Of a DNA stretch of 55,542 nt, positions 26,623-42,690 are shown piece after piece. The stretch spans positions 1 through 55,542 of the forward strand of contig JAJFIJ010000027.1 in the NCBI GenBank assembly GCA_021775105.1, given 5' to 3'. Made by a program: the position numbers and the translations under genes. This stretch comes from Rhodospirillales bacterium (lineage in GTDB: Bacteria > Pseudomonadota > Alphaproteobacteria > Rhodospirillales > Casp-alpha2). The notes beneath the pieces are model-generated. The model was not told where the DNA came from. It saw only the letters and a list, made by a program, of their open reading frames with translations, and made no database searches. The first letter of the stretch is position 1; each line of letters opens with the position of its first letter.

Positions 26623-27915
26623 ATGGCCAACGTAGTTGTCGTCGGTGCCCAATGGGGTGATGAAGGAAAAGGTAAAATCGTTGATCTGCTGTCAGAGCGG
26701 GCCGACGTAGTTGTTCGCTTTCAGGGCGGACACAATGCCGGTCATACACTGGTTATCGATGGCACGACCTACAAACTGAGCCTGCTGCCATCAGGTATCG
26801 TTCGTCCGAACAAGTTATCGCTGGTTGGCAACGGTGTGGTCCTTGACCCCTGGGCCTTCCTTGCTGAAGTTGACAGAATTCGCGAACAGGGCGTCGCCAT
26901 CAGTCCGGAAAACCTGCACATATCCGAGCAGGTCACACTGATCCTGCCGCTCCACAGCAACCTTGATCAGGCGCGTGAGAAAGCTGCCGGCAAAGGCAAG
27001 ATCGGCACAACCGGTCGCGGCATCGGCCCGGCATACGAAGATAAAACCGGTCGCCGCGCCATCCGCGCTGGCGACCTTGCCGATCTTGATGTTCTGGATG
27101 CCAAGATTGAACGCCTGTTGGTCCACCATAACGCGCTGCTGCGCGGCATGGGCATGGAAGAGGTATCAGGTGAGAAACTTGTTCAGGACCTCAAAGATAT
27201 CGCGCCGAAGCTGTTGCCCTATGTCGGCACCGTCTGGCAGGAACTGGACCGGGCACGGGCACAAGGCAAACGCATTCTTTATGAAGGCGCGCAAGGCACC
27301 ATGCTCGATGTCGATCACGGCACCTATCCGTATGTGACCTCATCCAACGTTGTCGCCGGCATGGCCGCCGTAGGGTCCGGACAGGGACCGGGGGCGATTG
27401 ACTACGTGCTTGGCATCACCAAGGCCTACACCACGCGCGTTGGCGAAGGCCCCTTCCCGACCGAATTGTTTGATGATGTTGGTCAGGGGCTTGGCGAACG
27501 CGGACGCGAATTTGGCACGGTGACCGGTCGGCCCCGGCGTTGCGGCTGGTTTGATGCGGTGCTGGTCCGCCAGGCCATCAAGGTCAACGGCATAACCGGC
27601 ATTGCCCTGACCAAACTGGATGTGCTGGATGGTGTTGAAGAACTCAAAGTCTGCACAGGCTACAAGATTGACGGTGAATTGTACGACCATCTTCCGGCAT
27701 CGACCGTACGTCAGGCGAAAGTCGAGCCTGTCTACGAGACCATTCCGGGCTGGACCGAAAGCACCTATGGGGCGAGAAGCTGGGCCGACCTTCCGGCAAC
27801 CTGCATCAAATACGTGCGCCGGATCGAAGAACTGATTGAGGCACCGGTCGCATTGCTGTCGACCAGCCCCGAACGCGACGACACGATTCTGGTGCACGAC
27901 CCGTTTGCCGACTGA
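26623..27915 (+). CDS. purA: Adenylosuccinate synthetase
   Basis: '[19 protein letters not shown]', '[12 protein letters not shown]', '[15 protein letters not shown]', '[14 protein letters not shown]'. Confidence 0.97.
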
Positions 27916-28030: not shown

Positions 28031-31000
28031 ATGTTCGCAAAGGCGTACATTGGTGCGGCTATTCTTCTGGCGTCAGCACTCATCAGTGGGTGTCAGACGT
28101 CAGGTTCGTCTTCAGCCATTTCCAAGGAAGAAGCCCTGAAGATTGCCGTCGAGTTTCAAGCAGCATCACCTGTTGTCGCGGCACGCTCAATTGATGGCTT
28201 CCTGGGGAAATTTGAAATCCTTGCAAAATGGCCCTGTGGAAATTCGGTGCAAGACACGCCCTCCAGTCGCCGTGAGATGTTCAAAAAAATAATCGCTGGT
28301 TTGCCTGAATACAACAATCAGCGCGGCATCACCAAACAGACAGAAGCTCAAGACGGCGCAACAAATGCCTTTCTGCGCGGTAACGTTTCCAACGCCGTTG
28401 AATATACTGATTGGGCAATCACGACCGTCAGGCGCTATAATTTTGGCAGTAATCCATGGACGGGATATCACGCGATACACAGCTATCAGCAGGCCTTTTA
28501 TCTGGCCTATGCTGGCGATCTTGAACGCGCCGAAAGCCTGTATTTTGACGGCACAGCGTACAGTACGGAAAGATGGCAAGACCCTCGAAACGTATACTGG
28601 CTGTACGCTCATCAGTATATGGCGGACGGTGCCATTAAACGCCAGAATGGAAGGTTGGATGCAGCAGAACTTTCCTTCAATACCGCACTCGGATTTCTAG
28701 CCCGAGCCATGCAGGTTTTTGAAGGAGATAATTCCCGATTTGCCGGTTGGTGGACACGGCGCTATCGCGGGAAAATACTTCTGGTTAAATCTGAATTAGG
28801 GTTGACGCTGCTTGCTCAAGGACGCGAAGCGGAAGCGGAAGCCCTGCTTCGTGACACTGTTAATTTCAGCGGCTTGGTGGAGATGGACAGCAAGCTCTAC
28901 ATCGCTTTTTTAATTGGTCGAGTTAGTGAAGTCCTGAGCGCTCAAAACCGCCATCTGGATGCTTTCAAAACTGCATCGCTCGCAAAACGCATTTATTCAA
29001 GCGTATGTGCCGATGGTGGACTTAGCTCCGCTGAAGTTCGCGAAAGACTGGCTCGTGCTCAATTGGCGCTTGGCAACTTTGATGATGCCAAAAATACCTA
29101 TGCTGAAATGGATAAATATTTTGAGGCGGACAAAAGGCTGCTTAATCTGAAATTTGGCGACAGCCTTGCGCGTGCATTCAACGAAATCCTGTCGGGAGAT
29201 TATTCAGAGGCATCGAAACGGCTGGATCTGGCCCTGAACCGGACAATAGAGCGGTTTGGTAAGGGTACCTCACGTCAGGCACTGATCATCGGACTCAGAG
29301 GGTTGATGCAGGCAACAAAAGGAGAGACTGAAGCGGCGCGGCCCCTGTTTGAGCAGGCAATGGTTGAGTTTTATCAAACACAGGGTCAAGCAGATTCGAG
29401 AGATGACTGGCTGAAAAAATATATTACAGACGGTTATCTTGACCTGCTGCAGAAAGGCGGCTCGCCCGACGATCTCTCAAAGGCTTTCGAGATTGCCCAA
29501 ACCCTTGAAAACGGCAAGGTTCAACAAGCGCTTCGCCAAAACGCCGCCCGCGCAGGAGCCAACAACCCCGAACTTGCCGACCTGATCCGTCAGGAACAGG
29601 ATCTGGGACAACAGATCGACGCCCTACGTCGCACCCTGAACTCCGCCCTTTCCAGCGCCGACAGCAAAGCCCAGGCGTCCGCCGAAAAGGTCAAGGCAAG
29701 CTTGCCTGCGCTGTTTCAGGCACGTCAGGAACTGGCCGCTGATATTGCCAACAAATTTCCGGAGTTCGATGAACTGATCAACCCACGCCCGTTGACGGTG
29801 GCCAAGTTGCAATCGCACTTGCCAAGTAATGGCGCTGTAGTAGTTGTCCGAACGACCGACAGCGCAACACAGGTCTGGGCCGTTCCCAAACAGGGAGATT
29901 TGATTTTTAAAACGATCCCCATTGGTCGCATTGAGTTGAATGAAACGGTGAAAGAAATAAGACGCGCTGTCGATCCGGGTGCGATTGCCAGTCTTGGTGA
30001 CATTCCTGCATTCGACACGGCAACGGCCTATGAACTTTACAACGCCCTTCTGGCCCCTGTGTCCAAAGCCTGGAAACAATCACGCTCTCTCTATGTTGTG
30101 ACTCAGGGTCCCCTCGGGCAATTACCCCTGTCCCTGTTGCCAACAACGCCAAACAGTAAAGGTGACGACGGCAATGTGCTGTTTGCCGGATATAGAAATG
30201 TAAACTGGCTGGCCAACTCGCACGCGGTCACTGTACTTCCCAGTGTTGGCGCGGTTGCGACCTTCAGTGGACAGACCTCAACAGCCAAGCGTCGTCCGTT
30301 TGTCGGTTTTGGCGATCCGTTTTTTAGTGGCGGGCAGGCGCTTGCCGCCACCAAGCCCGTCGAAGTTGCGCAAAACACACAAACCCGGTCTGTTACGTTG
30401 CGCTCCAAACCACAAACCCGATCCGTTAACAGCGCCGATCTTGCTATGTTGCCACGACTTCCGGATACCCGGCCTGAACTTCAGGGTATCGCCAGATCAC
30501 TTGGGGCCAATCAGGCAACTGATCTGTATCTCGGGCTCCGCGCCAATGAACAACAGGTCAAGACCATGGACCTACGCCCCTATAAGGTTATTGCCTTTGC
30601 AACGCACGGTCTGGTTCCGGGCGATCTTAACGGGTTACATCAGCCGGCCCTTGCGCTGTCGGCCCCCGGCCCTTCCAAATCCGAAGGGGATGGTTTGCTG
30701 ACTATGGCCGAAATTCTGGGACTGCGCCTCAACGCCGACTGGGCCGTCCTGTCCGCATGTAATACAGCCGCTGCCGATGGAGAAGGCGCTGAAGCCATAT
30801 CCGGGTTGGGCCGGGCATTTTTCTATGCCGGTGCCCGCGCATTGCTGGTCTCAAGCTGGCCGGTACATTCCGGTGCGACGACAGAACTGACCACGACGCT
30901 GTTTGGACTTCAGGCAAAAGACCGCACTCTGGCGAGAGCCGAGGCCCTTCGCCAGGCCCGGCAGCATCTGATCCGGAATGCCGGTTATCAGGCGGACGGA

Positions 31001-31069
31001 AAGATGCTGTTTGCCTACGCCCACCCTATATTCTGGGCACCTTTCACCATTGTCGGCGATGGTCGCTAA
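28031..31069 (+). CDS. Lipoprotein with TPR-like repeats, a coiled coil and a C-terminal CHAT (caspase-like) domain
   Basis: Lipobox 'LLASALISGC'; long helical repeat region. CHAT dyad contexts 'IAFATHGLVPGD' (His) and 'WAVLSACNTAAADG' (Cys), then 'AFFYAGARALLVSSWPV'. Confidence 0.8.
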   Translation: MFAKAYIGAAILLASALISGCQTSGSSSAISKEEALKIAVEFQAASPVVAARSIDGFLGKFEILAKWPCGNSVQDTPSSRREMFKKIIAGLPEYNNQRGITKQTEAQDGATNAFLRGNVSNAVEYTDWAITTVRRYNFGSNPWTGYHAIHSYQQAFYLAYAGDLERAESLYFDGTAYSTERWQDPRNVYWLYAHQYMADGAIKRQNGRLDAAELSFNTALGFLARAMQVFEGDNSRFAGWWTRRYRGKILLVKSELGLTLLAQGREAEAEALLRDTVNFSGLVEMDSKLYIAFLIGRVSEVLSAQNRHLDAFKTASLAKRIYSSVCADGGLSSAEVRERLARAQLALGNFDDAKNTYAEMDKYFEADKRLLNLKFGDSLARAFNEILSGDYSEASKRLDLALNRTIERFGKGTSRQALIIGLRGLMQATKGETEAARPLFEQAMVEFYQTQGQADSRDDWLKKYITDGYLDLLQKGGSPDDLSKAFEIAQTLENGKVQQALRQNAARAGANNPELADLIRQEQDLGQQIDALRRTLNSALSSADSKAQASAEKVKASLPALFQARQELAADIANKFPEFDELINPRPLTVAKLQSHLPSNGAVVVVRTTDSATQVWAVPKQGDLIFKTIPIGRIELNETVKEIRRAVDPGAIASLGDIPAFDTATAYELYNALLAPVSKAWKQSRSLYVVTQGPLGQLPLSLLPTTPNSKGDDGNVLFAGYRNVNWLANSHAVTVLPSVGAVATFSGQTSTAKRRPFVGFGDPFFSGGQALAATKPVEVAQNTQTRSVTLRSKPQTRSVNSADLAMLPRLPDTRPELQGIARSLGANQATDLYLGLRANEQQVKTMDLRPYKVIAFATHGLVPGDLNGLHQPALALSAPGPSKSEGDGLLTMAEILGLRLNADWAVLSACNTAAADGEGAEAISGLGRAFFYAGARALLVSSWPVHSGATTELTTTLFGLQAKDRTLARAEALRQARQHLIRNAGYQADGKMLFAYAHPIFWAPFTIVGDGR

Positions 31070-31106
31070 CCGGCCTCTCGCGGTGTGACGGGACAACGTC
31101 AGGTTA

Positions 31107-34100
31107 CTATTCAGCAGCCACCTTGTTTCCGGCTATCATCTGATGATCAACCAGACCGGCATAAAGTCCGTCGTTCTGGATCAATTCATTATGTGTGCCT
31201 TGCTCGGCAATGCGGCCATTGTCCATGACAATGATCAGGTCGGCATTGCGCACCGTCGACAGGCGGTGGGCAATTATCAACGTTGTCCGGTCTTCCATCA
31301 ACTTTGACAATGCTTCGTGAACGGCACGCTCACTGATTGAATCCAGATGTGATGTGGCTTCGTCCAATATCAGGATTGGCGCATCTTTCAGGAAGGCCCG
31401 GGCAATTGAAACGCGCTGGCGTTGCCCGCCCGACAAGCTGAACCCGCGTTCGCCGACCCGGGTTTGCAGACCATCGGGCAGAGCCTCGACAAACTCTTTC
31501 AGGGACGCCTGTTTGATTACATTTTCGATTTTCGCGTCAGTCGCCTGCGGATCGGCAATTTTCAGATTTGCCAGAAGCGTGTCGTTAAACAGATAGGTGT
31601 CCTGTGCAACAAGGGCCGTAGCATGGCGGATCTGGTCAAGTTTGCACGCTTTGAAGTCGATACCCTGAAGTGACACTTGACCCGATTGCGGGTCCCAGAA
31701 CCGCATCAACAGATGCGCCAATGTGCTTTTACCCGCTCCGGAGGGTCCAACCAGCGCAATGGTTTTGCCCGCTGGCAGCGAAAATGATACGTCGTCGAGA
31801 GCCGGAACAACGGTGCCGGGGTAGCTAAAGGTAACGTTCGAGAACGCCGCCTCCATGCCGCCATGTTCAGGAATTGAGACATCGAGGTCTCCGTCGGTAA
31901 TTGTCACTTCCTCATCATGCACGGCTTTGAGCCGTTGCGTTGCGCCCAGCGTATTGGCGAGCTGGCGCCCGACGTCGGCGATTTCCGATACCGGCAGAAA
32001 AGCGGCCATTGCGACCAGCGCCATCAATGGCATATAAGCGCCCTCGACCGTTCCTGCCTGAACCAGAAAAGTCCCCGTCAGGATGACGGAAAGCGTGCCG
32101 ATACCTGTGACCGCTTCGACAAAAACCTGACGAATATTGTTATCTCTCATGAAAGGCAAGCGAATGTCCTCGCACCAGTCAACCAGTCCAAGGAACGCCT
32201 CACGCCGGTTGCCAGTTGCTTCAAAGCTGAGGACTTCATTTAGGCCCTGAACTGTTTCAATGGTGTGGGCGGACATCAGGCCAAATGCTTCGCGGAGTGC
32301 GGAACCGATACGGTCAATCCGCTGGCGTAAAAAAACCGGCGTCAGGGCAACGATGACAAGTGACGGAACCAGCGCTGCTGCCAATGACCAATGAAACGAA
32401 TACAGCAAAATAAGGACGGTCGCAGGCACCAGAATCGCAACAAAGGCGGGAGCAATGGTATGCGCGAAAAAATATTCGACCATATCGACATCATGCGTCG
32501 CCAGACTGACGATATCTCCGCTGCGCCTGCGCGTCAGAAACGCCGGAGCCAACTGGCTGAGTTTCCTGAACAGTTTGATGCGCATGTCCGCCAACAGATT
32601 AAACGCCATGTCATGGGCAACCCAGGATTCCAGCCAGTGCAGGATTCCGGCGGCGGGCGCAAGCACTGCCAGGGCATACAGATACGTCATGAACTCGAGA
32701 TCATTTTTCACGGCGGCGACGGCAAGCGCCGACAACACACTGACGCCGATGAAGGCGACGACGCGGCTGACACCAAGGCCAAAGGTCAAGACCAGTCGAC
32801 CTTTCCAGGGCATCACATGACGCATCAGTTCGCGAATGGTAGCAAACCAGCCAAGCCCTTCCGCACGCAGCATCGAATCAAGCCGCTCGCTTCCTGCATG
32901 TTCGCGCAAGGGCTCTGACGGACCGACTTCCGGGGCACTGTCGATAATAACCTGCTTTTCCGCCCGGCCTTCCTGTCGTTCCTCGACTTGCCGGGCCATC
33001 AACGCATGATAGGTGCCCTCCGTTGCCATCAATTCCTTATGCGTTCCCTGCGCAGTGATTGACCCGTTGTCGAGAACCAGAATTCGGTCTGCCGCGATGA
33101 CACTTGAAAGACGGTGAGCCAGAATCAATGTGGTTCTTCCGATCATCAACCTGTCCAGTGCTTCCTGAATAATGGCCTCATTTTCTGCATCAACCGATGA
33201 CAAGGCTTCATCAAGGATCAGGATCGGAGAATTCCGAAGCAGCGCACGGGCAATGGCAATACGCTGGCGCTGACCGCCGGAAAGCCTGATCCCGCGCTCA
33301 CCGACAATGGTCCCGTAGCCATCCGGAAGCTTCATGATAAATTCATGGGCGTTGGCCGTAATCGCGGCCTGGCGCATCTGTTCCGGCGAAGCATCCGGGC
33401 GTCCGAGCAACAGGTTTTCAGCCACATTACCGTGGAACAGGTGCGTATCCTGACTGACGATTGCGAGGTGTTTTCGAATAGTGTCGAATGACAGTGATTT
33501 CAGATCCTTACCGCCGATACGGATCGTTCCGCTTTCCGGGTCATAAAACCGTGACAGCAGCCGGACAATTGACGACTTTCCTGATCCACTCGGCCCAACA
33601 ATCGCTATTCTTTCGCCTGCGCCAATGCGAAAAGAAACCTTCTTGTGGATCATCCCTCGACCGCCCGGGTACTGGAACTGAACATCCGCAAATTCAATTG
33701 TTGGCTCAAGCGCACCGCCCATTTCAGCGTCGTCTACGGCATCCTGGATCAGGGGTTGTTCATCAAGGATCGAGAATATCTGTTTTGATGCCGCCAGAGA
33801 CAGCATCCCGTCATGCAATACGGTCCTCAGGTCACGCAGGGGGCGGAAAACCTCAACGCCCAGCATGAGAATAATCAGCAATGTCGCAATATCCATGGAA
33901 CCATCTACGACACGAAATGCACCGACGCCGAGCGCCACGGCGGCACCGACAGCAATACCGGTGTCCGTAATGCCACGGGTCAGGGAGCTTGTCGCCAGCA
34001 CCCATTTTGTCGTATGGGTCAGCTTGTGGGCCTTTTCACCTAAAACGGCAGCATACTCGCGACTGCGTCCGAACGCTTTTAACGTTGCCAGTCCCTGCAA

Positions 34101-34703
34101 GGCATCCAGGAATGCCGCAGAATAATCCCTGAAGGCGACCGAACGGGACAGTGAATTGGCGCTATCCCAATTATGAAATAATGCTGGTGACAATAACGTA
34201 AACATCGCCGCCGCCAGAAGAACCCCGGCAATGGTCAGGTCGAAATAGGCAACAAACAGGAATATTACGGGCGGGGTCATCAGGGCGACGAAAAAACACG
34301 GCAGGTATTTTCCGTAATACACGCCGAGATGTTCAACACCATCAATTGCTGCTGTCGCAATATCGCCGGTATGTGAATTCGCATGCCGGGCTGGTCCCAA
34401 TTTGATCACATGATCAAAGATCATGGCCCTGATTTTGCGTTGTATCTTTACGCTCGTTTCATGCGAATGCATGGCCCGCAGGTAATCCCAGATCGCGCGG
34501 AAAACGATAACAGCAACAGTTACCACCCCCGGAATCAACAGGTCATTCAGGGTGCCACCCGACAGGGCAATTCCCAGCAGCCATCCCAGCAGGACCAGCC
34601 GAACGATTCCGGCAACCGATGAAATCAACCCCATTGCAATTGCCCAGCCAATACGGCCACGATATCCAGAAGTCAACTGCCAGAGCCGGAGATCAAAATG
34701 CAT
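31107..34703 (-). CDS. Fused ABC exporter (TMD-NBD-TMD-NBD in one 1198-aa chain), CydD/CydC-like
   Basis: Two Walker A sites ('GPSGSGKSS', 'GPSGAGKST'), two signatures ('LSGGQRQRIAIARAL', 'LSGGQRQRVSIARAF'), two 6-helix membrane blocks. Confidence 0.88.
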   Translation of the reverse strand: MHFDLRLWQLTSGYRGRIGWAIAMGLISSVAGIVRLVLLGWLLGIALSGGTLNDLLIPGVVTVAVIVFRAIWDYLRAMHSHETSVKIQRKIRAMIFDHVIKLGPARHANSHTGDIATAAIDGVEHLGVYYGKYLPCFFVALMTPPVIFLFVAYFDLTIAGVLLAAAMFTLLSPALFHNWDSANSLSRSVAFRDYSAAFLDALQGLATLKAFGRSREYAAVLGEKAHKLTHTTKWVLATSSLTRGITDTGIAVGAAVALGVGAFRVVDGSMDIATLLIILMLGVEVFRPLRDLRTVLHDGMLSLAASKQIFSILDEQPLIQDAVDDAEMGGALEPTIEFADVQFQYPGGRGMIHKKVSFRIGAGERIAIVGPSGSGKSSIVRLLSRFYDPESGTIRIGGKDLKSLSFDTIRKHLAIVSQDTHLFHGNVAENLLLGRPDASPEQMRQAAITANAHEFIMKLPDGYGTIVGERGIRLSGGQRQRIAIARALLRNSPILILDEALSSVDAENEAIIQEALDRLMIGRTTLILAHRLSSVIAADRILVLDNGSITAQGTHKELMATEGTYHALMARQVEERQEGRAEKQVIIDSAPEVGPSEPLREHAGSERLDSMLRAEGLGWFATIRELMRHVMPWKGRLVLTFGLGVSRVVAFIGVSVLSALAVAAVKNDLEFMTYLYALAVLAPAAGILHWLESWVAHDMAFNLLADMRIKLFRKLSQLAPAFLTRRRSGDIVSLATHDVDMVEYFFAHTIAPAFVAILVPATVLILLYSFHWSLAAALVPSLVIVALTPVFLRQRIDRIGSALREAFGLMSAHTIETVQGLNEVLSFEATGNRREAFLGLVDWCEDIRLPFMRDNNIRQVFVEAVTGIGTLSVILTGTFLVQAGTVEGAYMPLMALVAMAAFLPVSEIADVGRQLANTLGATQRLKAVHDEEVTITDGDLDVSIPEHGGMEAAFSNVTFSYPGTVVPALDDVSFSLPAGKTIALVGPSGAGKSTLAHLLMRFWDPQSGQVSLQGIDFKACKLDQIRHATALVAQDTYLFNDTLLANLKIADPQATDAKIENVIKQASLKEFVEALPDGLQTRVGERGFSLSGGQRQRVSIARAFLKDAPILILDEATSHLDSISERAVHEALSKLMEDRTTLIIAHRLSTVRNADLIIVMDNGRIAEQGTHNELIQNDGLYAGLVDHQMIAGNKVAAE

Positions 34704-34814
34704 TCTGCGTTCCTTGTTTTGAAGTCACAGGATATGTAATCAATCCTGATCGCGTGACAACCAATTGTGAAAGGTTCCCGAATTTAGATTAAATATTTTT
34801 GAGGGTCTCTTGCT

Positions 34815-34841
34815 AAATATGAATACCCTGCATTCATATTT
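34815..34841. promoter_or_regulatory. Candidate LysR-type binding site: perfect 10-bp inverted repeat with a 7-nt spacer
   Basis: AAATATGAAT-accctgc-ATTCATATTT in the divergent ABC/LysR intergenic region, 43 nt upstream of the lysR-family ATG. Confidence 0.5.
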
Positions 34842-34883
34842 GTTTAGGAGAAGGTCTAAAAAAAATGACATACTGGGCGTGCA

Positions 34884-35801
34884 ATGGATTTTGATTGGAA
34901 CGATCTCAGAATTTTTCTTGCCGTGGCCCGGAAAGGTAACCTTTCGGTCGCAGCCAAGGATTTGTCTATCAGTCAACCCACCGTCGGACGCCGCCTGCAA
35001 AAGCTTGAACAATCCCTTTCCGCCAGATTGTTTGAGCGGTTGCCAAACGGGTTCGTCCCGACTGCTGCCGGTGTCGAACTCCTTCCATTGGCGGAGGAAA
35101 TGGAACAAACGGCTAATGCCGTGTCCCGGCGCCAAGCAAGCTTCGCAGATCAGGTCAGCGGCACGGTCAGGATTTCAGCTTATGAAATAATGGCGCAATA
35201 CCTGATCAGCCGCCTGCCACTACTCCGCCAACAGTTGCCAGAAGTTGAACTGGAATTTTCGGTCGCCCATACAGCCGCCAATCTATCCCGGCGCGAAGCT
35301 GACTTGTTAGTCCGCGAATGCATGCCGGATTCTCCCGGCTTGATCACTCGCAAGCTCGGGTCATTTGCATACGCCATTTATGGTTCACACACCTATCTGC
35401 AATCTCACCCGGAAGCCTTCGGGGACGAACGGTATTTGATGTGCGACTGGATTGGCACAGACGATGATCATATCTATTTTGCCGGTCAACGCTGGTTACG
35501 TGACCGACTGGGACAAAGACTACCTGTCGTTCGAAGCAATAACGGTGTGGTGCTGCACGAAAGTGTCAGAACCGGTTCCGGACTGGGCGTTTTGCCATGC
35601 TTTGCCGGTGACACGGACCCGGCCTTGCAACGTGTGACACCGCCAATTGAGGACATCAACAGCACATTTTATTTGCTTGTTCATGATGACTTGAGGCGTT
35701 CGCCAGCCGTCCGCGCTGTTATGGATTCTCTGGTCGAACTGTTTCGCAATGAATCTGCGATCCTGCTTGGACATGGGAAGTTTGATAGGGTGATTGGCTA
35801 A
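34884..35801 (+). CDS. LysR-family transcriptional regulator
   Basis: 'WNDLRIFLAVARKGNLSVAAKDLSISQPTVGRRLQKLEQSL' HTH plus a typical substrate-binding domain length. Confidence 0.9.
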   Translation: MDFDWNDLRIFLAVARKGNLSVAAKDLSISQPTVGRRLQKLEQSLSARLFERLPNGFVPTAAGVELLPLAEEMEQTANAVSRRQASFADQVSGTVRISAYEIMAQYLISRLPLLRQQLPEVELEFSVAHTAANLSRREADLLVRECMPDSPGLITRKLGSFAYAIYGSHTYLQSHPEAFGDERYLMCDWIGTDDDHIYFAGQRWLRDRLGQRLPVVRSNNGVVLHESVRTGSGLGVLPCFAGDTDPALQRVTPPIEDINSTFYLLVHDDLRRSPAVRAVMDSLVELFRNESAILLGHGKFDRVIG

Positions 35802-35982
35802 ATTATCGCCATAGTTCCGTGCACAAACATCATGGCTACGCTATCCACCCACTCAGGCGAACCGCACTTTGGTGTCATAATTTTCTTGTTTTACTTCAAT
35901 GAGCGGACTAGAATCCTGAGTCTATAGCTATGAAGGGCAGGCAAGAATGCCGTAGCCCCCATAAGCGTTGGGACAAGTGACC

Positions 35983-38094
35983 ATGGCAGAACAGCCGTTG
36001 GAAACGGATGACCTTGCGGGCCTTATGCCGCCTGCTGAGATGGAATCCCCGGCCGATACGGAGAGTCAGGAAGAGGAATTCCAGACTCAACGCGTAGCGT
36101 CGCGTGGACCTGTTCTAATTCGTGACCGGTATCTGGTTGATACAGGCAGCCCTATAACAGCGCTCGACTCTCCCTCAGCCAAAGCTTTCAAGGTCGAAGA
36201 TCGTCAGGATCTGGGTCGGAAACTGTTTGCTCTGATCTGTACGTCTGACCTGCCCACCCGCATCGACACCATGCGTTATATGAAGCGGGACCTGCCGCCC
36301 GGTGTTCTGTCCCTTATTGACTGGGATGTCGTGCATTGGCCGCCTTGGGGCCAGAACACAATGGTCGTGGTTTTCGAACAACCCCTTGGTGGTCGGGTGG
36401 AATCCCGCCTGGCCCGCAAAGAAACCAGAATCACGGAATATGATGTACCGCGCCGTCTGGTCGAGCCGCTGATGTCTCCGTTGCAGGCTCTCTCGGATGA
36501 GAATGAGCCGCACAGAGCCATCCGCGCGGACAATCTGTTTTTTCTGGACGAGGAAATGACGGAGATCGTTCTTGGCGAGAATGTGACCTCACCGCCCGGG
36601 TATGACCAGCCCATCATGTACGAACCTCTTGATCGAGCCATGGCGTCACATGAGGGCCGGGGCATCGGCACGGCTGCCGATGATATTTTTGCGCTGGGGG
36701 TGACCATCGGGTTACTTGTTCTGGGTTATAATCCTCTTGCCAAAGTGAAAGATGCGGATCAGATCCGGCTGCGCTGTCAACAGGGGAGTTATGTTACTAT
36801 TTTTGGTGACGCCCGTGTTCCGCTGCCACTGATGGAACCTTTGCGTGGCATGATCAACGACGAGCCGGAAAGTCGATGGAGCTTTACAGATCTGACAAAC
36901 TGGTTGACAGGCCAACAGACGGGGACAATCAAAAAGAAGGGACTGATCAGAGCCGATGTACCGTTTACATTCAGAGGCGCGGATTATATCAGCGCCAAGA
37001 CGCTTGCCCTTCACTTTTGCAATCACGTACCGGAAGCCGCACGGGCTATTAATGACGAATCGTTTTCCGTCTGGCTGAAGCGCGGCCTGGGAGACAAAGG
37101 CAAGGCTGAAGCCGTCAAATCGGTCGTTCAGGGAGCACTGTTTCACAAGGAAGGGTATCAGGGAACCGACGATTATCTGGTTGCCAAAGTCGCAACGATT
37201 CTGGATCCCAGTTCACCGATCCGCTACAAGGGCTTCAGCCTCATGCCGGATGGGTATGGCACCTTCGTCGCCATTCAGGCGGCACGCAATAAAAATACCG
37301 AAATTGCAATTCAACTCCTCACGCATGACATACCCGCGATGTGGTTCAATCTTCAGGAACCTTCATTCCCCGGAACGTCAACGTTGACCCAGACCTTTGC
37401 CAAACTGAAGGGATTCCTGTCGATCAACGAAACGGGTTATGGGATTGAACGCCTTCTTTATGAAATCAGCCCGAGCCTGCCGTGCCAAAGTCCGCTTCTT
37501 GACAAAAGTTGTGTCGTTTCGATTGAGCACCTGTTGCCTGCGCTGGAATTTGTTTCCAATCACACTGATACCCAGCAGTCGCCCACGGATCGCCATATCG
37601 TTGCCTTTATTGCCGCACGGTTTGATCAGGACATACACCCCCATCTGAAAGCCCTGGCATCACCAAAAGAGGAAACATCTGTTGTCGGAATGTTGAGCCT
37701 GCTTGCATTCCTGCAATGGAAACTTCGCCAACCCGCCATGCTTGGCTTGTCCAGTTGGGTCGGAGGCTTGCTCGGGCCGGCGATCAACAGCTATCACAAC
37801 AGAATTACCCGCGCCGATATCGAAAAAGACATTCCTTCTCTGGTTCGCAAGGGCAGCCTGCCCGAGCTGTTCGATCTGGTAGATAATGCCGAACGTCGCC
37901 AGGAAGATCGCGACGGTTACGCTGAAGCGCAAATGGAATGGCTGGCCGCCGACGAAGAAATACGCGACATTGAAGGGTCAGGCGATGAGCGGTTGACCAA
38001 AGCTGAGCGAACGGGCCAGCAGGCGGCGGCGATGATCTCTGTTCTTATGGCTTTCACCACCTTGACCGTACTCTTAATTCTGGAGGCGTGGTAG
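35983..38094 (+). CDS. Tail-anchored protein with an N-terminal protein-kinase-like (apparently pseudokinase) domain and about 400 aa of unknown function
   Basis: 'HRAIRADN' (nt 36511-36534) in place of HRDxKxxN, 'IVLGEN' in place of DFG, 'DDIFALGVTIGLLVLG' subdomain-IX-like, no Gly-rich loop. C-terminal helix 'AAAMISVLMAFTTLTVLLILEAW'. Confidence 0.7.
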   Translation: MAEQPLETDDLAGLMPPAEMESPADTESQEEEFQTQRVASRGPVLIRDRYLVDTGSPITALDSPSAKAFKVEDRQDLGRKLFALICTSDLPTRIDTMRYMKRDLPPGVLSLIDWDVVHWPPWGQNTMVVVFEQPLGGRVESRLARKETRITEYDVPRRLVEPLMSPLQALSDENEPHRAIRADNLFFLDEEMTEIVLGENVTSPPGYDQPIMYEPLDRAMASHEGRGIGTAADDIFALGVTIGLLVLGYNPLAKVKDADQIRLRCQQGSYVTIFGDARVPLPLMEPLRGMINDEPESRWSFTDLTNWLTGQQTGTIKKKGLIRADVPFTFRGADYISAKTLALHFCNHVPEAARAINDESFSVWLKRGLGDKGKAEAVKSVVQGALFHKEGYQGTDDYLVAKVATILDPSSPIRYKGFSLMPDGYGTFVAIQAARNKNTEIAIQLLTHDIPAMWFNLQEPSFPGTSTLTQTFAKLKGFLSINETGYGIERLLYEISPSLPCQSPLLDKSCVVSIEHLLPALEFVSNHTDTQQSPTDRHIVAFIAARFDQDIHPHLKALASPKEETSVVGMLSLLAFLQWKLRQPAMLGLSSWVGGLLGPAINSYHNRITRADIEKDIPSLVRKGSLPELFDLVDNAERRQEDRDGYAEAQMEWLAADEEIRDIEGSGDERLTKAERTGQQAAAMISVLMAFTTLTVLLILEAW

Positions 38095-38123
38095 CATGAT
38101 GCCAGGCATGGAGCAGGTTAATC

Positions 38124-38645
38124 ATGGCTAGACAAGCCGTCGGACAGGGTAACGCCGCAGGAAAGGCCGGGATATGGTTATGGGTCGTCGCGATCTTAAC
38201 GATAATGGTCATCCTGTCCGCTCCGACCATGATTGTTCTGGCGCTCGGTTCACTTCCTACAGCTGTTGCCTGGCTTTGTGACCGTACCAAGGAGAAATTT
38301 GCGACATTTTGTGTTGGTGGATTGAACTTCTGCGGGGTGTTCCCGTATCTGCTGAAAATCTGGTTTGATGATCATTCCCTGTCGGCGGCGATGAATATCG
38401 TCTCTGATGTTTTTGCGCTGGCGGTGATGTACGCCGCCGCCGGGTTTGGCTGGGCCCTGTTTTTATCTATCCCGCCAGTGGTCTCAGCCTTTCTGAACGT
38501 CATTGCCCAACAACGGGTCAGCTATCTGCGTTCCATTCAAAAGGCGATTACCGATGAATGGGGGCATTCCGTTACCGACGAGCAGGAACCTGCTGAAATT
38601 GAGCAAAGCGAAACGCCTCCGGCCCAACCAACAGCAGATAATTAG
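38124..38645 (+). CDS. Hypothetical 4-TM membrane protein with an acidic C-terminal tail
   Basis: Four hydrophobic segments, GGAG upstream of the ATG, 29 nt after the kinase-like gene on the same strand. Confidence 0.65.
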   Translation: MARQAVGQGNAAGKAGIWLWVVAILTIMVILSAPTMIVLALGSLPTAVAWLCDRTKEKFATFCVGGLNFCGVFPYLLKIWFDDHSLSAAMNIVSDVFALAVMYAAAGFGWALFLSIPPVVSAFLNVIAQQRVSYLRSIQKAITDEWGHSVTDEQEPAEIEQSETPPAQPTADN

Positions 38646-38699
38646 AATATCACGCCCCGAAGCGGTTCCGATGAAATCCGCTTCGCTGGTTATATTCTA
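38643..38699. terminator. Long imperfect hairpin between convergent genes (candidate bidirectional terminator or REP-like element)
   Basis: Outer arms TAGAATAT/ATATTCTA, a 6x6 internal loop, inner perfect stem CGAAGCGG/CCGCTTCG (38658-38685). It begins at the stop codon of the membrane protein gene. Confidence 0.4.
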
Positions 38700-40811: not shown

Positions 40812-41168
40812 ATGCGCTGGCTGAAATTCATTGTCATCCTTTTGGGATTACTGATTGTTTGTGGCGTCGCCCTGCTTGGTTATGGCTTTTTCAAGAAATC
40901 TACACAACCAGACTGGAAACCGTTTGCCGGTTCGGAACGGCCTGCCCCGACAACCACGCCGCCGATCCCGGAGTACAAGCGCAAAGGGCCGCCGCCCGTG
41001 TTTGGTGATATCAAACTGGACATCCCGCCGCTATGTCATATCGCGTCCATCCAGTCTGAACGCCAGCGACTCTATGTTTCCCTGGGCCCTGTAGGCATCT
41101 GCAACCGGATCATTGTCATTGATATCGCCGATGGGCGAATCCTCGGTACAATTTCGAGCGCCCCGTGA
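40812..41168 (+). CDS. Small N-terminally anchored membrane protein, unknown function
   Basis: 'MRWLKFIVILLGLLIVCGVALLGYGFF' anchor. Its stop overlaps the next start (GTGA). Confidence 0.6.
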   Translation: MRWLKFIVILLGLLIVCGVALLGYGFFKKSTQPDWKPFAGSERPAPTTTPPIPEYKRKGPPPVFGDIKLDIPPLCHIASIQSERQRLYVSLGPVGICNRIIVIDIADGRILGTISSAP

Positions 41169-41647
41169 TCTCTCTCCCGCTGAGTTTCCTGAAATGTATT
41201 TCGGATGCCGCAGAAGCCGCCTATCCAAAAGAATGTTGCGGCCTGCTGGTCGGGCGCGACGATGGAGCTGGTGCCCTGGTCGTAACACGGGTGGTCGAAA
41301 GCCGGAATCTGGCTGAAGATGGTCGTCATGATCGCTTTGAAGTGGACCCGCAAGTCCGCTTCGACGTGATGCGGGAACTGGATGATTACGCCAAACAGGG
41401 CCATGCCCACCACCGCATTATTGGCCACTATCATTCTCACCCCGGCCACCCGGCCCAGCCGTCCGAAACAGACCTTTCGAAAGCTTATGAGCCAGATCTG
41501 GTTTGGCTGATCGTTTCTGTGGTTGACGGACAGGCCGTCCAGACAACCGCTCATGTCGTTGATTCCGAAGGTCGCCAGTTCCGTGAAATTCCATTGCGAA
41601 CCACCGACTGGCAGCCCTATCCTGTTCGCGAGCCAAATCAGACTTGA
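41165..41647 (+). CDS. Mov34/MPN/JAB-domain metalloprotease with an intact JAMM motif
   Basis: 'PKECCGLLVG' (Glu) and 'GHYHSHPGHPAQPSETD' (HxHx7Sx2D). GTG start overlaps the previous stop. Confidence 0.85.
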   Translation: MISLPLSFLKCISDAAEAAYPKECCGLLVGRDDGAGALVVTRVVESRNLAEDGRHDRFEVDPQVRFDVMRELDDYAKQGHAHHRIIGHYHSHPGHPAQPSETDLSKAYEPDLVWLIVSVVDGQAVQTTAHVVDSEGRQFREIPLRTTDWQPYPVREPNQT

Positions 41648-42690
41648 AAAAGGAACTTCCATTGAATTTCGCCAGTGACAACACGACCGGGGCATCGCCC
41701 GAGATTATTGACGCCATTGTGGCTGCCAATGACGGCCAGACAATGCCCTACGGCAACGATGATTACACGGTCAGGGTCGCTGACCGCATCCGCGATATAT
41801 TTGAAACCGATGCAGAGGTTTTTATGGTTGCGACCGGATCGGCGGCAAATGCACTGGCGCTTTCAACCATGACCGCAAGTTATGGTGCTGTATTATGTCA
41901 TTGGCTCAGCCATATTTATGAAGACGAATGTGGCGCACCTGAATTTTTTAGCGGCGGCGCAAAACTGATCCCGCTTGAAGGCGAAGGCGCCAAAATCAAC
42001 CCAGAACAACTTGAAAAATATGCCGGGCGCGGTGTCGGCGATGTTCATATGGTTCAGCCAATGGCGGCCAGTGTCACCCAGATTAGCGAAATGGGAACTG
42101 TTTATTCCGTTGATGAGGTTCAGGCGATTTCGGAGATTTGCAAAAATCGTAAGCTGAAACTGCACATGGACGGTGCCCGGTTTGCCAATGGTCTGGTCCA
42201 GCTGGATTGCAGCCCGGCAGACATCACCTGGAAATCCGGCGTCGATGTGATGTCATTCGGAGCTTCAAAAAATGGCGCCTTAACGTCGGAAGCGGTTATC
42301 TTTTTTGATAAATCCATGGCCCGCGAGTTCGAGTTCCGGCGCAAACGCGGCGGTCACCTGTTTTCCAAAATGCGGCTATTGTCGTGCCAGATGGATGCCT
42401 ATCTCAAAGATGACCTTTGGCTCAGGAACGCCCGCCACGCCAATGCCATGGGGCAACGCCTGAAGCAGGGATTAATCAATCTTCCCGGTGTCGAATTTCC
42501 GACGACTAACGATGCCAACATGCTGTTTCCGCATCTTTCACAAAATCTGATTGATGCCCTGCATGCTGACGGATTTCAATTCTACGATGATCGTTGGGGT
42601 GATGGCATTGTCCGCCTTGTCACCGCGTTCAATACACCGCAATCGCACGTTGACGCCTTCATTGAAGCGGCCCGAAAACACACCGGATAA
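41644..42690 (+). CDS. ltaE: Low-specificity L-threonine aldolase (PLP-dependent, beta-eliminating lyase fold)
   Basis: 'NFASDNTTGASPEI', 'GSAANALALS', 'MSFGASKNGA' (PLP Lys). TTG start overlaps the JAB stop (TTGA). Confidence 0.75.
   Translation: MKKELPLNFASDNTTGASPEIIDAIVAANDGQTMPYGNDDYTVRVADRIRDIFETDAEVFMVATGSAANALALSTMTASYGAVLCHWLSHIYEDECGAPEFFSGGAKLIPLEGEGAKINPEQLEKYAGRGVGDVHMVQPMAASVTQISEMGTVYSVDEVQAISEICKNRKLKLHMDGARFANGLVQLDCSPADITWKSGVDVMSFGASKNGALTSEAVIFFDKSMAREFEFRRKRGGHLFSKMRLLSCQMDAYLKDDLWLRNARHANAMGQRLKQGLINLPGVEFPTTNDANMLFPHLSQNLIDALHADGFQFYDDRWGDGIVRLVTAFNTPQSHVDAFIEAARKHTG

What the first reader, a model, noticed from the sequence alone, without database searches (positions are those of the whole stretch)
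35983..38645. Tail-anchored bacterial pseudokinase with a large unknown domain, paired with a 4-TM protein
Seen: residues about 45-260 follow the Hanks-kinase layout, with a catalytic-loop-like HRAIRADN at nt 36511-36534 and subdomain-IX-like DDIFALGVTIGLLVLG. There is no Gly-rich loop. The HRD Asp is Ala and DFG is replaced by LGE. About 400 further residues carry no motif I recognise. The protein ends in one hydrophobic helix (AAAMISVLMAFTTLTVLLILEAW), so it would be C-terminally anchored with the bulk in the cytoplasm. A 173-aa 4-TM protein with an acidic tail starts 29 nt downstream on the same strand, with its own GGAG. Established: the HRD and DFG aspartates are needed for phosphotransfer in eukaryote-like kinases. 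Inference: this is a non-catalytic kinase-fold scaffold or sensor working with a dedicated membrane partner. I know of no described function for such a pair.
Basis: partly seen in the sequence, partly recalled or inferred. Interest (0 to 1): 0.7.

Follow-up and report, generated by a model that had tools for sequence, protein, structure and literature searches.

The report
Tail-anchored pseudokinase with membrane partner
This is a conserved two-gene unit of Rhodospirillales bacteria: a kinase-shaped protein that lacks key phosphate-transfer residues, carries a large domain with no recognisable relatives and sits in the inner membrane by its last helix, followed in every relative checked by a small four-helix membrane protein; I found no description of it and its function is unknown.

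Summary
ORF 35983-38094 (703 aa) has a real protein-kinase fold at residues 44-310 (Foldseek E 1e-8, TM 0.71-0.76). It has no Gly-rich loop, no beta3 lysine (K/R in 1 of 335 relatives) and no HRD aspartate (D/E in 14 of 335).

One correction: "DFG to LGE" is probably two residues out of register. E199 (Glu or Asp in 88% of relatives) likely sits at the DFG-Asp position, and the catalytic-loop Asn184 is 97% conserved. Cation or nucleotide binding therefore cannot be excluded.

Residues 311-668 match nothing in Pfam, NCBIfam, PADLOC or the PDB, by sequence or by fold. They hold the invariant Y493, C501 and D536, and near-invariant H538. A terminal TM helix occurs in 187 of 190 non-redundant relatives.

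The 173-aa membrane protein follows directly in 79 of 79 evaluable loci and in 3 of 3 distant ones, and it co-evolves with the kinase-like protein (partial r 0.68).

The family is large (1392 clusters at 50% identity), named members are Rhodospirillales, and it lies in core synteny (hisZ-purA-pair-rpoH-rluD). It fits none of the seven published bacterial pseudokinase families. Many relatives, but not this window, carry a CtrA-type TTAACCAT box upstream.

Best reading: a non-phosphorylating, membrane-tethered scaffold or sensor complex. A functional link to rpoH is not supported.

The parts
35983..38094 (+). Gene for the 703-aa tail-anchored kinase-like protein (ATG 35983, stop TAG 38092-38094)
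   Evidence: ORF list. The N-terminal 'MAE' is conserved in relatives, which fixes the start. 182 full-length homologues at 42-79% identity.
35983..36111 (+). Residues 1-43: acidic, disordered N-terminal tail of variable length
   Evidence: pLDDT 31-37. Mean column identity 0.16 across 190 relatives. Variable insertions are visible in alignment A1.
36112..36912 (+). Residues 44-310: protein-kinase fold domain (pseudokinase)
   Evidence: Foldseek against the PDB: E 1e-8, TM(target) 0.71-0.76 to WNK, CaMKI, ULK1 and MerTK. phmmer alignment to MAPKAPK2. LanL and MAD6 kinase models hit 19 and 16 of 19 relatives.
36142..36189 (+). Residues 54-69: conserved loop 'P-L-P-x-L-D-S-P-S-A-x-A-[YF]' in place of the Gly-rich loop
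   Evidence: No GxGxxG is present. A68 is 92% conserved; P57 75%; L58 72%.
36226..36240 (+). Residues 82-86, 'FALIC': the beta3 strand, where the ATP-binding Lys is replaced by Ile/Val
   Evidence: Aligns to 'FALK' of MAPKAPK2. Position 85 is V/I/L in 93% of relatives, and K/R in 1 of 335.
36511..36534 (+). Residues 177-184, 'HRAIRADN': catalytic-loop remnant with the HRD Asp replaced by Ala and the Asn kept
   Evidence: alignment. H177 92%; position 179 is A/G/S/N (D/E in 14 of 335); N184 97%.
36571..36585 (+). Residues 197-201, 'LGENV': DFG-region remnant; E199 is probably at the DFG-Asp position
   Evidence: G198 97%; E/D199 88%; C200 72%. The register is inferred from strands 185-187 and 195-197 in the model.
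36592..36684 (+). Residues 204-234: conserved activation-segment/P+1 region 'PPGYDQPxxFEPxER...GRGxG..DD'
   Evidence: Q209 95%, E214 96%, R226 97%, G227 96%, G229 96%, D234 100%.
36913..37887 (+). Residues 311-635: mainly alpha-helical domain with no detectable relatives outside this family
   Evidence: No Pfam, PADLOC or PDB sequence hit. Foldseek against the PDB: best E 0.7, TM at most 0.2. pLDDT about 85-92 in the full-length model.
37435..37491 (+). Residues 485-503, 'GYGIERLLYEISPSLPCQS': the most conserved block of the unknown domain
   Evidence: G485 96%, G487 99%, E489 95%, R490 98%, Y493 100%, C501 100%, S503 98% in 190 non-redundant relatives.
37588..37596 (+). Residues 536-538, 'DRH': invariant Asp and near-invariant His
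   Evidence: D536 100%, H538 97%.
37888..37986 (+). Residues 636-668: long helix linking the globular part to the membrane anchor
   Evidence: DSSP helix 636-664. D642 99%, A649 96%.
37987..38091 (+). Residues 669-703: basic juxtamembrane stretch plus C-terminal transmembrane helix (the tail anchor), with a small-residue stripe at G678/A682/S686/A690
   Evidence: A hydropathy-defined TM lies in the last 60 residues in 187 of 190 relatives, with a median of 3 residues after it. G678 86%, A682 86%, S686 64% (+A 25%).
38110..38113 (+). GGAG Shine-Dalgarno for the partner gene, 10 nt before its ATG
   Evidence: Sequence read.
38124..38645 (+). Gene for the 173-aa partner. It has four predicted TM helices (about 17-33, 35-52, 59-78, 95-117, with a hydrophobic extension to about 130), then a cytoplasmic amphipathic helix ending in invariant 'EWG', then an acidic tail.
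   Evidence: ORF. Hydropathy and conservation. Found directly downstream of the kinase-like gene in 79 of 79 loci, with a gap of at most about 47 nt, and in 3 distant genomes. No known family.

Best explanation
The two genes form an operon. It encodes a membrane-tethered, non-phosphorylating kinase-fold complex that is vertically inherited in named Rhodospirillales lineages.

The 703-aa protein lies in the cytoplasm and is held at the inner membrane by its last helix. Its kinase fold keeps the structural core (HRD His, catalytic-loop Asn, APE Glu, alphaF Asp, subdomain XI Arg) and a conserved activation-segment surface. It has lost the Gly-rich loop, the beta3 Lys and the catalytic Asp, so it cannot carry out canonical phosphotransfer.

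It most likely acts as a binding platform or conformational switch, fused to a new ~350-residue helical domain that carries its own invariant polar cluster (Y493, C501, S503, D536, H538). The 4-TM protein is its obligate partner. It probably contacts the tail anchor's small-residue face within the membrane, and contacts the cytoplasmic domains through its conserved DR loop and C-terminal 'EWG' helix.

Shown here: the fold, the missing residues, the anchor, the partner's co-occurrence and co-evolution, and the lack of any known relatives for the C-terminal domain. Inferred: cytoplasmic orientation, physical complex formation, and the scaffold or sensor role. In many relatives the operon is probably under CtrA (cell-cycle and motility) control.
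For: - Kinase fold.
- Loss of catalytic residues family-wide: K/R at the beta3 position in 1 of 335; D/E at the HRD-Asp position in 14 of 335; no GxGxxG.
- What stays conserved in the kinase domain is mainly the structural skeleton (H177, N184, E214, D234, R298, W299) and the activation-segment region (Q209, R226, G227, G229).
- Tail anchor in 187 of 190 relatives, with a conserved stripe of small residues.
- Partner directly downstream in 79 of 79 loci with a short gap of at most about 47 nt. It stays adjacent in Fodinicurvata, Niveispirillum and Dongiaceae, even where the surrounding genes differ.
- Distance matrices of the two proteins correlate at r 0.85. Partial r is 0.68 after removing RpoH and RluD, against 0.08-0.34 for the other pairs.
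- Core-genome synteny hisZ-purA-pair-rpoH-rluD.
- Large family: 1392 clusters at 50% identity, and the same architecture in all of the top 150.
- The full-length model is more confident than the isolated C-terminal domain (pTM 0.78 against 0.43). This suggests the two domains pack as one unit.
- CtrA-type box upstream in relatives: 25 of the 31 TTAACCAT occurrences in 860 kb lie in the 200 nt before the gene. The motif's identity comes from PMC6180460.
Against: - No experiment exists for any member.
- E/D199 (88%) probably occupies the DFG-Asp position, and Asn184 is 97% conserved. A cation or nucleotide site may therefore survive, and 'non-catalytic' is a sequence-based call only.
The partner contact surfaces and the clustering of C501, D536 and H538 are untested.
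- The 4-TM topology rests on hydropathy only; residues 86-129 could form two helices.
- The CtrA-type box is absent from this window, where an 8-kb insertion replaces the usual upstream region.
Confidence: 0.6

Rival explanations
1. The kinase fold is still a working nucleotide- or cation-binding module. It would be either an atypical enzyme (as SelO and SidJ use a kinase fold for AMPylation and glutamylation) or an ATP-binding switch, using N184, E/D199 and other migrated residues such as R93.
For: N184 97%, E/D199 88%, R93 97%, H177 92% conserved. E199 falls at the DFG-Asp position by strand register. Reviews note pseudokinases that keep nucleotide binding or gain other chemistries.
Against: There is no Gly-rich loop, and a longer conserved loop sits in its place. 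The beta3 Lys is hydrophobic in 93% of relatives. No conserved Lys occurs in beta2 (K67 only 31%), unlike WNK. No conserved alphaC Glu. The catalytic-base position is Ala/Gly/Ser. H177, N184 and D234 are also explained by their structural roles in the fold.
Confidence: 0.15
2. The functional centre is the unknown C-terminal domain, acting as an enzyme or a metal/redox sensor built on invariant Cys501, Asp536, His538 and Tyr493. The dead kinase fold would serve only as its platform or regulator.
For: Three of the five 100%-invariant positions of the whole protein (Y493, C501, D536) lie in this domain, along with S503 98% and H538 97%. The domain is as conserved as the kinase C-lobe: 16 against 18 columns at 90% or more. 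It has no known relatives.
Against: Whether these residues cluster in space could not be checked, because no coordinates were available. The domain is mostly helical and matches no hydrolase or metal-site fold. Invariant residues can also be purely structural.
Confidence: 0.15
3. The pair regulates the neighbouring heat-shock sigma factor RpoH, for example as a membrane-bound sensor or anti-sigma-like tether.
For: rpoH lies just downstream in 56 of 80 related loci and in the window.
Against: rpoH is convergent, so it is not co-transcribed. It is absent next to the pair in 24 of 80 loci, where thiC or other genes follow, and in Fodinicurvata and Niveispirillum. Partial correlations with RpoH are low: 0.23 for the kinase-like protein and 0.11 for the partner. 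The adjacency is explained by a conserved core block that also holds purA, hisZ and rluD.
Confidence: 0.06
4. It is a mobile defence or toxin module. This was suggested by weak hits to the MAD6 kinase of the MADS anti-phage system.
For: NCBIfam MAD6 E 5.5e-5 and PADLOC mad6 E 6e-5.
Against: The scores are 21.9 bits against a cut-off of 460. The hits cover the kinase C-lobe, and the C-terminal domain alone hits nothing. The pair sits in a stable core-genome position next to purA, and identity to the window protein declines gradually from 79% to about 42% across relatives with the same full-length architecture. No methylase or other MADS genes are nearby.
Confidence: 0.02

Closest known systems
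EssB/YukC, the membrane pseudokinase of the Firmicute type VIIb secretion system
   Same: A bacterial kinase fold degraded in all catalytic motifs and lacking a Gly-rich loop. It is membrane-anchored and works as a structural scaffold with other membrane proteins (review PMC12599244).
   Different: EssB has a central TM helix followed by an extracellular domain, and it lies in T7SS gene clusters. The window protein ends at its TM helix, has a 350-residue cytoplasmic domain with no detectable relatives, has no secretion genes nearby, and is alphaproteobacterial.
GLW family of proteobacterial pseudokinases (bacterial STK atlas)
   Same: [quoted passage not shown]
   Different: GLW is defined by a Gly-Leu-Trp motif in place of HRD and a poly-Leu beta3. 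Here HRD is H-R-A/G and beta3 is [LF]-A-L-[VI]-C. The atlas was seeded from Pfam Pkinase hits, and the window protein does not reach that threshold.
MviN/MurJ-linked pseudokinase of mycobacteria (ActPs3 family)
   Same: An intracellular pseudokinase domain physically coupled to a polytopic membrane protein and acting without ATP binding.
   Different: In MviN the two are fused in one polypeptide with a 14-TM flippase, the activation loop is deleted, and the family is actinobacterial. Here the membrane partner is a separate 4-TM protein and the activation segment is long and conserved.
UbiB/ABC1 (ADCK) atypical kinase-like proteins
   Same: A kinase-like fold tethered to the inner membrane by C-terminal helices and not acting as a protein kinase (from general knowledge, not tested here beyond Pfam).
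   Different: No hit to the ABC1 family (PF03109) in the Pfam scan. UbiB keeps its Lys and Asp catalytic residues. The C-terminal domain differs.
Kinase domains of class IV lanthionine synthetase LanL and of MAD6
   Same: These are the closest sequence models for the kinase C-lobe: LanL hits 19 of 19 relatives, best E 2.7e-15; MAD6 hits 16 of 19.
   Different: The match covers the kinase domain only, at 20-35 bits for the proteins whose scores were printed against cut-offs of 650 and 460. Both are active kinases with other partner domains and different gene contexts.

Membership tests
Hanks-type (eukaryote-like) protein kinase superfamily, fold level | Bilobal kinase fold | tested here: met
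   AF2 model pLDDT 85. Foldseek E 1e-8 and TM(target) 0.71-0.76 to many kinase domains.
Hanks-type protein kinase (Pfam PF00069) | Score at or above the Pfam gathering threshold | tested here: not met
   15.5 bits against 31.7, E 0.011. Some relatives carry a precomputed PF00069 hit.
Catalytically competent Hanks-type kinase | Gly-rich loop GxGxxG between beta1 and beta2 | tested here: not met
   It is replaced by the longer loop 'PLPxLDSPSAxA[YF]'.
Catalytically competent Hanks-type kinase | ATP-binding Lys in beta3 (VAIK) | tested here: not met
   I85 in the window. V/I/L in 93% of relatives; K/R in 1 of 335.
Catalytically competent Hanks-type kinase | Catalytic Asp of HRD | tested here: not met
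   A179 in the window. A/G/S/N dominate; D/E in 14 of 335.
Catalytically competent Hanks-type kinase | Metal-binding Asp of DFG | tested here: inconclusive
   There is no DFG. E199 (E/D in 88%) follows invariant G198 and falls two residues after beta8, where the DFG Asp sits in 'xGDFG' kinases. The sequence alignment gives a different register.
Catalytically competent Hanks-type kinase | Catalytic-loop Asn, APE Glu, alphaF Asp, subdomain XI Arg | tested here: met
   N184 97%, E214 96%, D234 100%, R298 98%.
Pseudokinase (sequence definition: at least one of VAIK-Lys, HRD-Asp, DFG-Asp missing) | [quoted passage not shown] | tested here: met
   The Lys and the HRD Asp are absent family-wide. The definition is as given in PMC12599244 and the bSTK atlas.
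Pseudokinase (biochemical definition) | No phosphotransfer activity | not testable with these tools
   Needs a kinase assay and nucleotide-binding measurements.
GLW pseudokinase family | GLW motif in place of HRD and a poly-Leu/Trp beta3 | tested here: not met
   The motifs here are H-R-A and F-A-L-I-C. Family definition.
GLW pseudokinase family | [quoted passage not shown] | tested here: met
   C-terminal TM in 187 of 190 relatives. This feature is shared with many kinase families and is not diagnostic.
EssB/YukC (T7SSb) | Central TM helix followed by an extracellular domain; located in an ess/yuk secretion locus | tested here: not met
   The TM helix is terminal, with a median of 3 residues after it. 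Neighbours are purA, hisZ, rpoH and rluD.
UbiB/ABC1 | Match to PF03109 (ABC1 atypical kinase-like domain) | tested here: not met
   Not among the Pfam hits at E up to 1.
MAD6 kinase of the MADS defence system | NCBIfam equivalog score of at least 460 bits, and a MADS gene context | tested here: not met
   21.9 bits. The PADLOC hit is E 6e-5 and limited to residues 230-393. No defence genes are adjacent.
Tail-anchored membrane protein | Single TM helix at the extreme C-terminus, no signal peptide, bulk on the cytoplasmic side | tested here: inconclusive
   The terminal hydrophobic helix and the basic juxtamembrane stretch are present, and the N-terminus is acidic and disordered. The orientation is inferred, not measured.

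The most novel reading that the evidence does not exclude
The pair is a previously unrecognised membrane signalling module of Rhodospirillales, CtrA-controlled in many lineages. A dead kinase fold presents or gates a new cytoplasmic domain, and that domain's invariant Cys/Asp/His/Tyr cluster binds a metal or small molecule, or carries out a new chemistry. The 4-TM partner, with its invariant intramembrane Asn68, couples this to a membrane or envelope signal tied to the cell cycle or to polarity.
Probability: 0.25. Interest if true: 0.75.

Novelty: new variant of a known kind. Interest (0 to 1): 0.58.

Why it matters
Bacterial pseudokinases are a young field. A 2025 atlas and a 2025 review list only seven families, with almost no functions known.

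This would add a large family (1392 clusters at 50% identity; at least 412 species representatives). The Pfam-seeded surveys probably missed most of it, because many members, including the window protein, fall below the Pkinase threshold. It comes with three features not reported for the published families:
- a terminal tail anchor,
- a ~350-residue domain with no sequence or fold relatives, and
- a co-evolving 4-TM partner that accompanied it in every locus examined.

Its fixed place in the core genome and the CtrA-type boxes upstream in many lineages point to a housekeeping role at the membrane, possibly tied to the cell cycle or motility. That role could be tested in cultured Rhodospirillales. 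The C-terminal domain and the partner both lack a family model in Pfam and NCBIfam.

Tried and rejected
1. Searching for a shifted alignment that restores the catalytic residues. None was found in the window protein or in 335 relatives. The WNK-style beta2 Lys was also checked (K67 only 31% conserved).
2. Identifying the C-terminal domain. All came back empty: Pfam at E up to 5 on 17 members, PADLOC, a PDB profile search, and Foldseek against the PDB on a separate model. That separate model is only moderately confident (pLDDT 75.6, pTM 0.43), so the fold search is not exhaustive.
3. Internal duplication in the C-terminal domain. By eye there are two 'beta-hairpin plus helices ending in Trp' modules. 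hhalign of the sub-alignments gave only P 0.005 and 7% probability, so this is inconclusive.
4. Identifying the 4-TM partner. Only a sub-threshold DUF3165 hit in 4 of 21 members and chance PDB hits.
5. Defence-system membership via the MAD6 hits. Rejected: the hits cover the kinase C-lobe and are far below the cut-off, and the context is core genome.
6. A functional link to rpoH. Rejected as unsupported.
7. Literature searches for a described homologue. Queries covered tail-anchored pseudokinases, bacterial pseudokinase families, and pseudokinase together with Rhodospirillum, Azospirillum or Magnetospirillum. Nothing was found.
8. RNA elements in the window. No Rfam or tRNA hits.
9. Promoter and terminator scan around the operon. 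Nothing above chance.


Full report
**What is there**

Two same-strand ORFs occupy 35983-38094 (703 aa) and 38124-38645 (173 aa). They are separated by 29 nt, with GGAG at 38110-38113. The N-terminal 'MAE' is conserved in relatives, so the ATG at 35983 rather than the upstream TTG is the start. Upstream lie a LysR-type gene, a fused ABC transporter and a CHAT-TPR gene. Downstream, convergent, are rpoH and rluD.

**The kinase-like domain**

The window protein alone is a sub-threshold Pfam Pkinase hit (15.5 bits, E 0.011). Its best PDB sequence match is MAPKAPK2 at E 0.016. In that alignment HRAIRADN pairs with HRDVKPEN and FALI with FALK.

The fold is nonetheless clear. An AF2 model built on 26 relatives has pLDDT 85 and pTM 0.78. 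Its residues 44-310 match many kinase domains at Foldseek E about 1e-8 with TM(target) 0.71-0.76. The LanL and MAD6 kinase models hit 19 and 16 of 19 divergent relatives.

I aligned 335 full-length relatives, of which 190 remain at 60% identity or less. The results by position:
- Gly-rich loop: replaced by a longer conserved loop.
- Beta3 Lys position: V/I/L in 93%; K/R in 1 of 335.
- HRD-Asp position: A/G/S/N; D/E in 14 of 335.
- Conserved residues: H177 (92%), N184 (97%), G198 (97%), E/D199 (88%), Q209, E214, R226-G227-x-G229, D234 (100%), R298-W299.

Most of these are the structural skeleton of the C-lobe plus the activation-segment/P+1 surface.

Beta8 is residues 195-197 in the model, so E199 falls where the Asp of 'xGDFG' kinases falls (an inference). 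By the sequence definition the protein is a pseudokinase. However, a cation ligand pair (N184 with E/D199) may survive.

**The rest of the protein**

Residues 311-668 have no hit in Pfam, PADLOC or PDB sequences. A separate model of this part (pLDDT 75.6) finds nothing in the PDB by fold (best E 0.7, TM at most 0.2). In the full-length model this region has pLDDT of about 85-92, and the overall pTM is 0.78 against 0.43 for the isolated domain. This suggests it packs against the kinase fold.

It holds three of the five fully invariant positions of the protein (Y493, C501, D536), plus S503 and H538 at 97-98%.

A terminal hydrophobic helix is present in 187 of 190 relatives, with a median of 3 residues after it. 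It carries a stripe of small residues, G678/A682/S686/A690. With a basic juxtamembrane stretch and no signal peptide, the bulk is inferred to be cytoplasmic.

**The partner**

The 173-aa protein shows four hydropathy-defined TM segments. It has a conserved cytoplasmic 'DR' loop, an invariant Asn68 in 'GGLNFCG', an invariant 'EWG' in a C-terminal amphipathic helix, and an acidic tail. It belongs to no known family. Some NCBI records call it 'acyl-CoA synthetase', which has no support in this analysis.

**Distribution and linkage**

A profile of the C-terminal domain finds 1392 clusters at 50% identity (854 at E 1e-30 or better). All of the top 150 have the same architecture. In species-representative genomes, 412 stretches encode a relative.

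Named members are Rhodospirillales in the broad sense: Magnetovibrio, Thalassospiraceae, Kiloniellaceae, Fodinicurvata, Skermanella, Niveispirillum, Inquilinus, Stellaceae and Dongiaceae.

The partner gene follows directly in 79 of 79 evaluable loci, with a short gap of at most about 47 nt. The same holds in three distant genomes, including Niveispirillum, where the surrounding genes are different.

Pairwise-distance matrices of the two proteins correlate at r 0.85. Partial r is 0.68 after removing RpoH and RluD, while all other pairs give 0.08-0.34.

The usual context is hisZ-purA-pair-rpoH-rluD: purA is upstream in 73 of 80 loci, and rpoH is downstream in 56 of 80. In this window about 8 kb (CHAT-TPR, ABC, LysR) sits between purA (26623-27915) and the pair.

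**Regulation in relatives**

An exact [GA]TTAACCAT[AG] lies about 100-157 nt before the start codon in 25 of 80 loci. Full TTAA-N7-TTAAC boxes occur at -144 to -146 in three loci of the window's own clade. One- or two-mismatch variants occur in other clades.

Of the 31 TTAACCAT in 860 kb of fetched loci, 25 lie in those 200-nt upstream stretches. TTAACCAT and TTAA-N7-TTAA are the described CtrA motifs (PMC6180460). The window has neither motif anywhere, which is consistent with its upstream region having been replaced.

**Interpretation**

The best-supported reading is a non-phosphorylating kinase-fold protein, tethered to the cytoplasmic face of the inner membrane, that works as a complex with its 4-TM partner as a scaffold or sensor (confidence about 0.6).

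The rivals are:
- a surviving nucleotide or cation site, or an atypical activity (0.15);
- a functional centre in the unknown domain (0.15);
- RpoH regulation (0.06): rpoH is convergent, often absent, and shows no co-evolution;
- a defence module (0.02), rejected on context.

**Comparison with what is known**

It resembles EssB/YukC, the MviN pseudokinase and the proteobacterial GLW family in being a membrane-associated dead kinase. It meets the defining motifs or contexts of none of them.

The published atlas started from Pfam Pkinase hits. The window protein and many relatives do not reach that threshold, so the family was probably largely missed. I found no paper on it. I therefore rate it a new variant of a known kind, with moderate to good interest.

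Noticed in passing
Related loci L001-L083, the 200 nt upstream of the kinase-like gene (absent from window 35783-35982): A CtrA/SciP-type motif [GA]TTAACCAT[AG] lies at about -100 to -157 in 25 of 80 loci. Full TTAA-N7-TTAAC boxes occur at -144 to -146 in L001, L002 and L004. 25 of the 31 occurrences in 860 kb fall in these upstream stretches. The window has none anywhere.
   Followed up: partly
window 28031-35801: About 8 kb sits between purA (26623-27915) and the pair, where most relatives have only about 200 nt. It holds a 1012-aa TPR-CHAT protein (28031-31069, +), a 1198-aa fused double ABC transporter (31107-34703, -) and a LysR regulator (34884-35801, +). This looks like a lineage-specific insertion that displaced the usual promoter region.
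   Followed up: partly
window 38124-38645 and homologues P0167, P0199, P0211, P0221: Several NCBI records name the 160-210-aa 4-TM partner 'acyl-CoA synthetase'. No family model or domain supports this, so it is probably a propagated misannotation.
   Followed up: partly
window 38658-38685: An 8-bp inverted repeat (CGAAGCGG ... CCGCTTCG, 12-nt loop) lies between the convergent partner gene and rpoH. It has no T-run. It could be a bidirectional terminator, but the scan did not call it.
   Followed up: no
window 40812-42690: A small 118-aa ORF, a JAB/MPN-domain protein (41165-41647) and a beta-eliminating-lyase-type gene (41644-42690) have overlapping stops and starts. A 114-aa ORF followed by a Beta_elim_lyase gene also follows rluD in the Dongiaceae locus L083, so the core synteny extends past rluD.
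   Followed up: no
L021 and L024 (both from MAG 'Rhodospirillales bacterium bin.246'): Two different contigs of one bin each carry the whole pair-rpoH-rluD block, at 50% and 49% identity to the window protein. This is either a mixed bin or a segmental duplication.
   Followed up: no
window 36913-37430 (residues about 318-482): There are two similar-looking modules, each a beta-hairpin followed by helices ending in a conserved Trp (W364 and W454). hhalign gives only weak support (P 0.005).
   Followed up: partly
L026-L047 clade, downstream of the partner gene: In the relatives that lack rpoH next to the pair, thiC follows after a gap of about 540 nt. That gap is long enough for a TPP riboswitch, which was not checked.
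   Followed up: no
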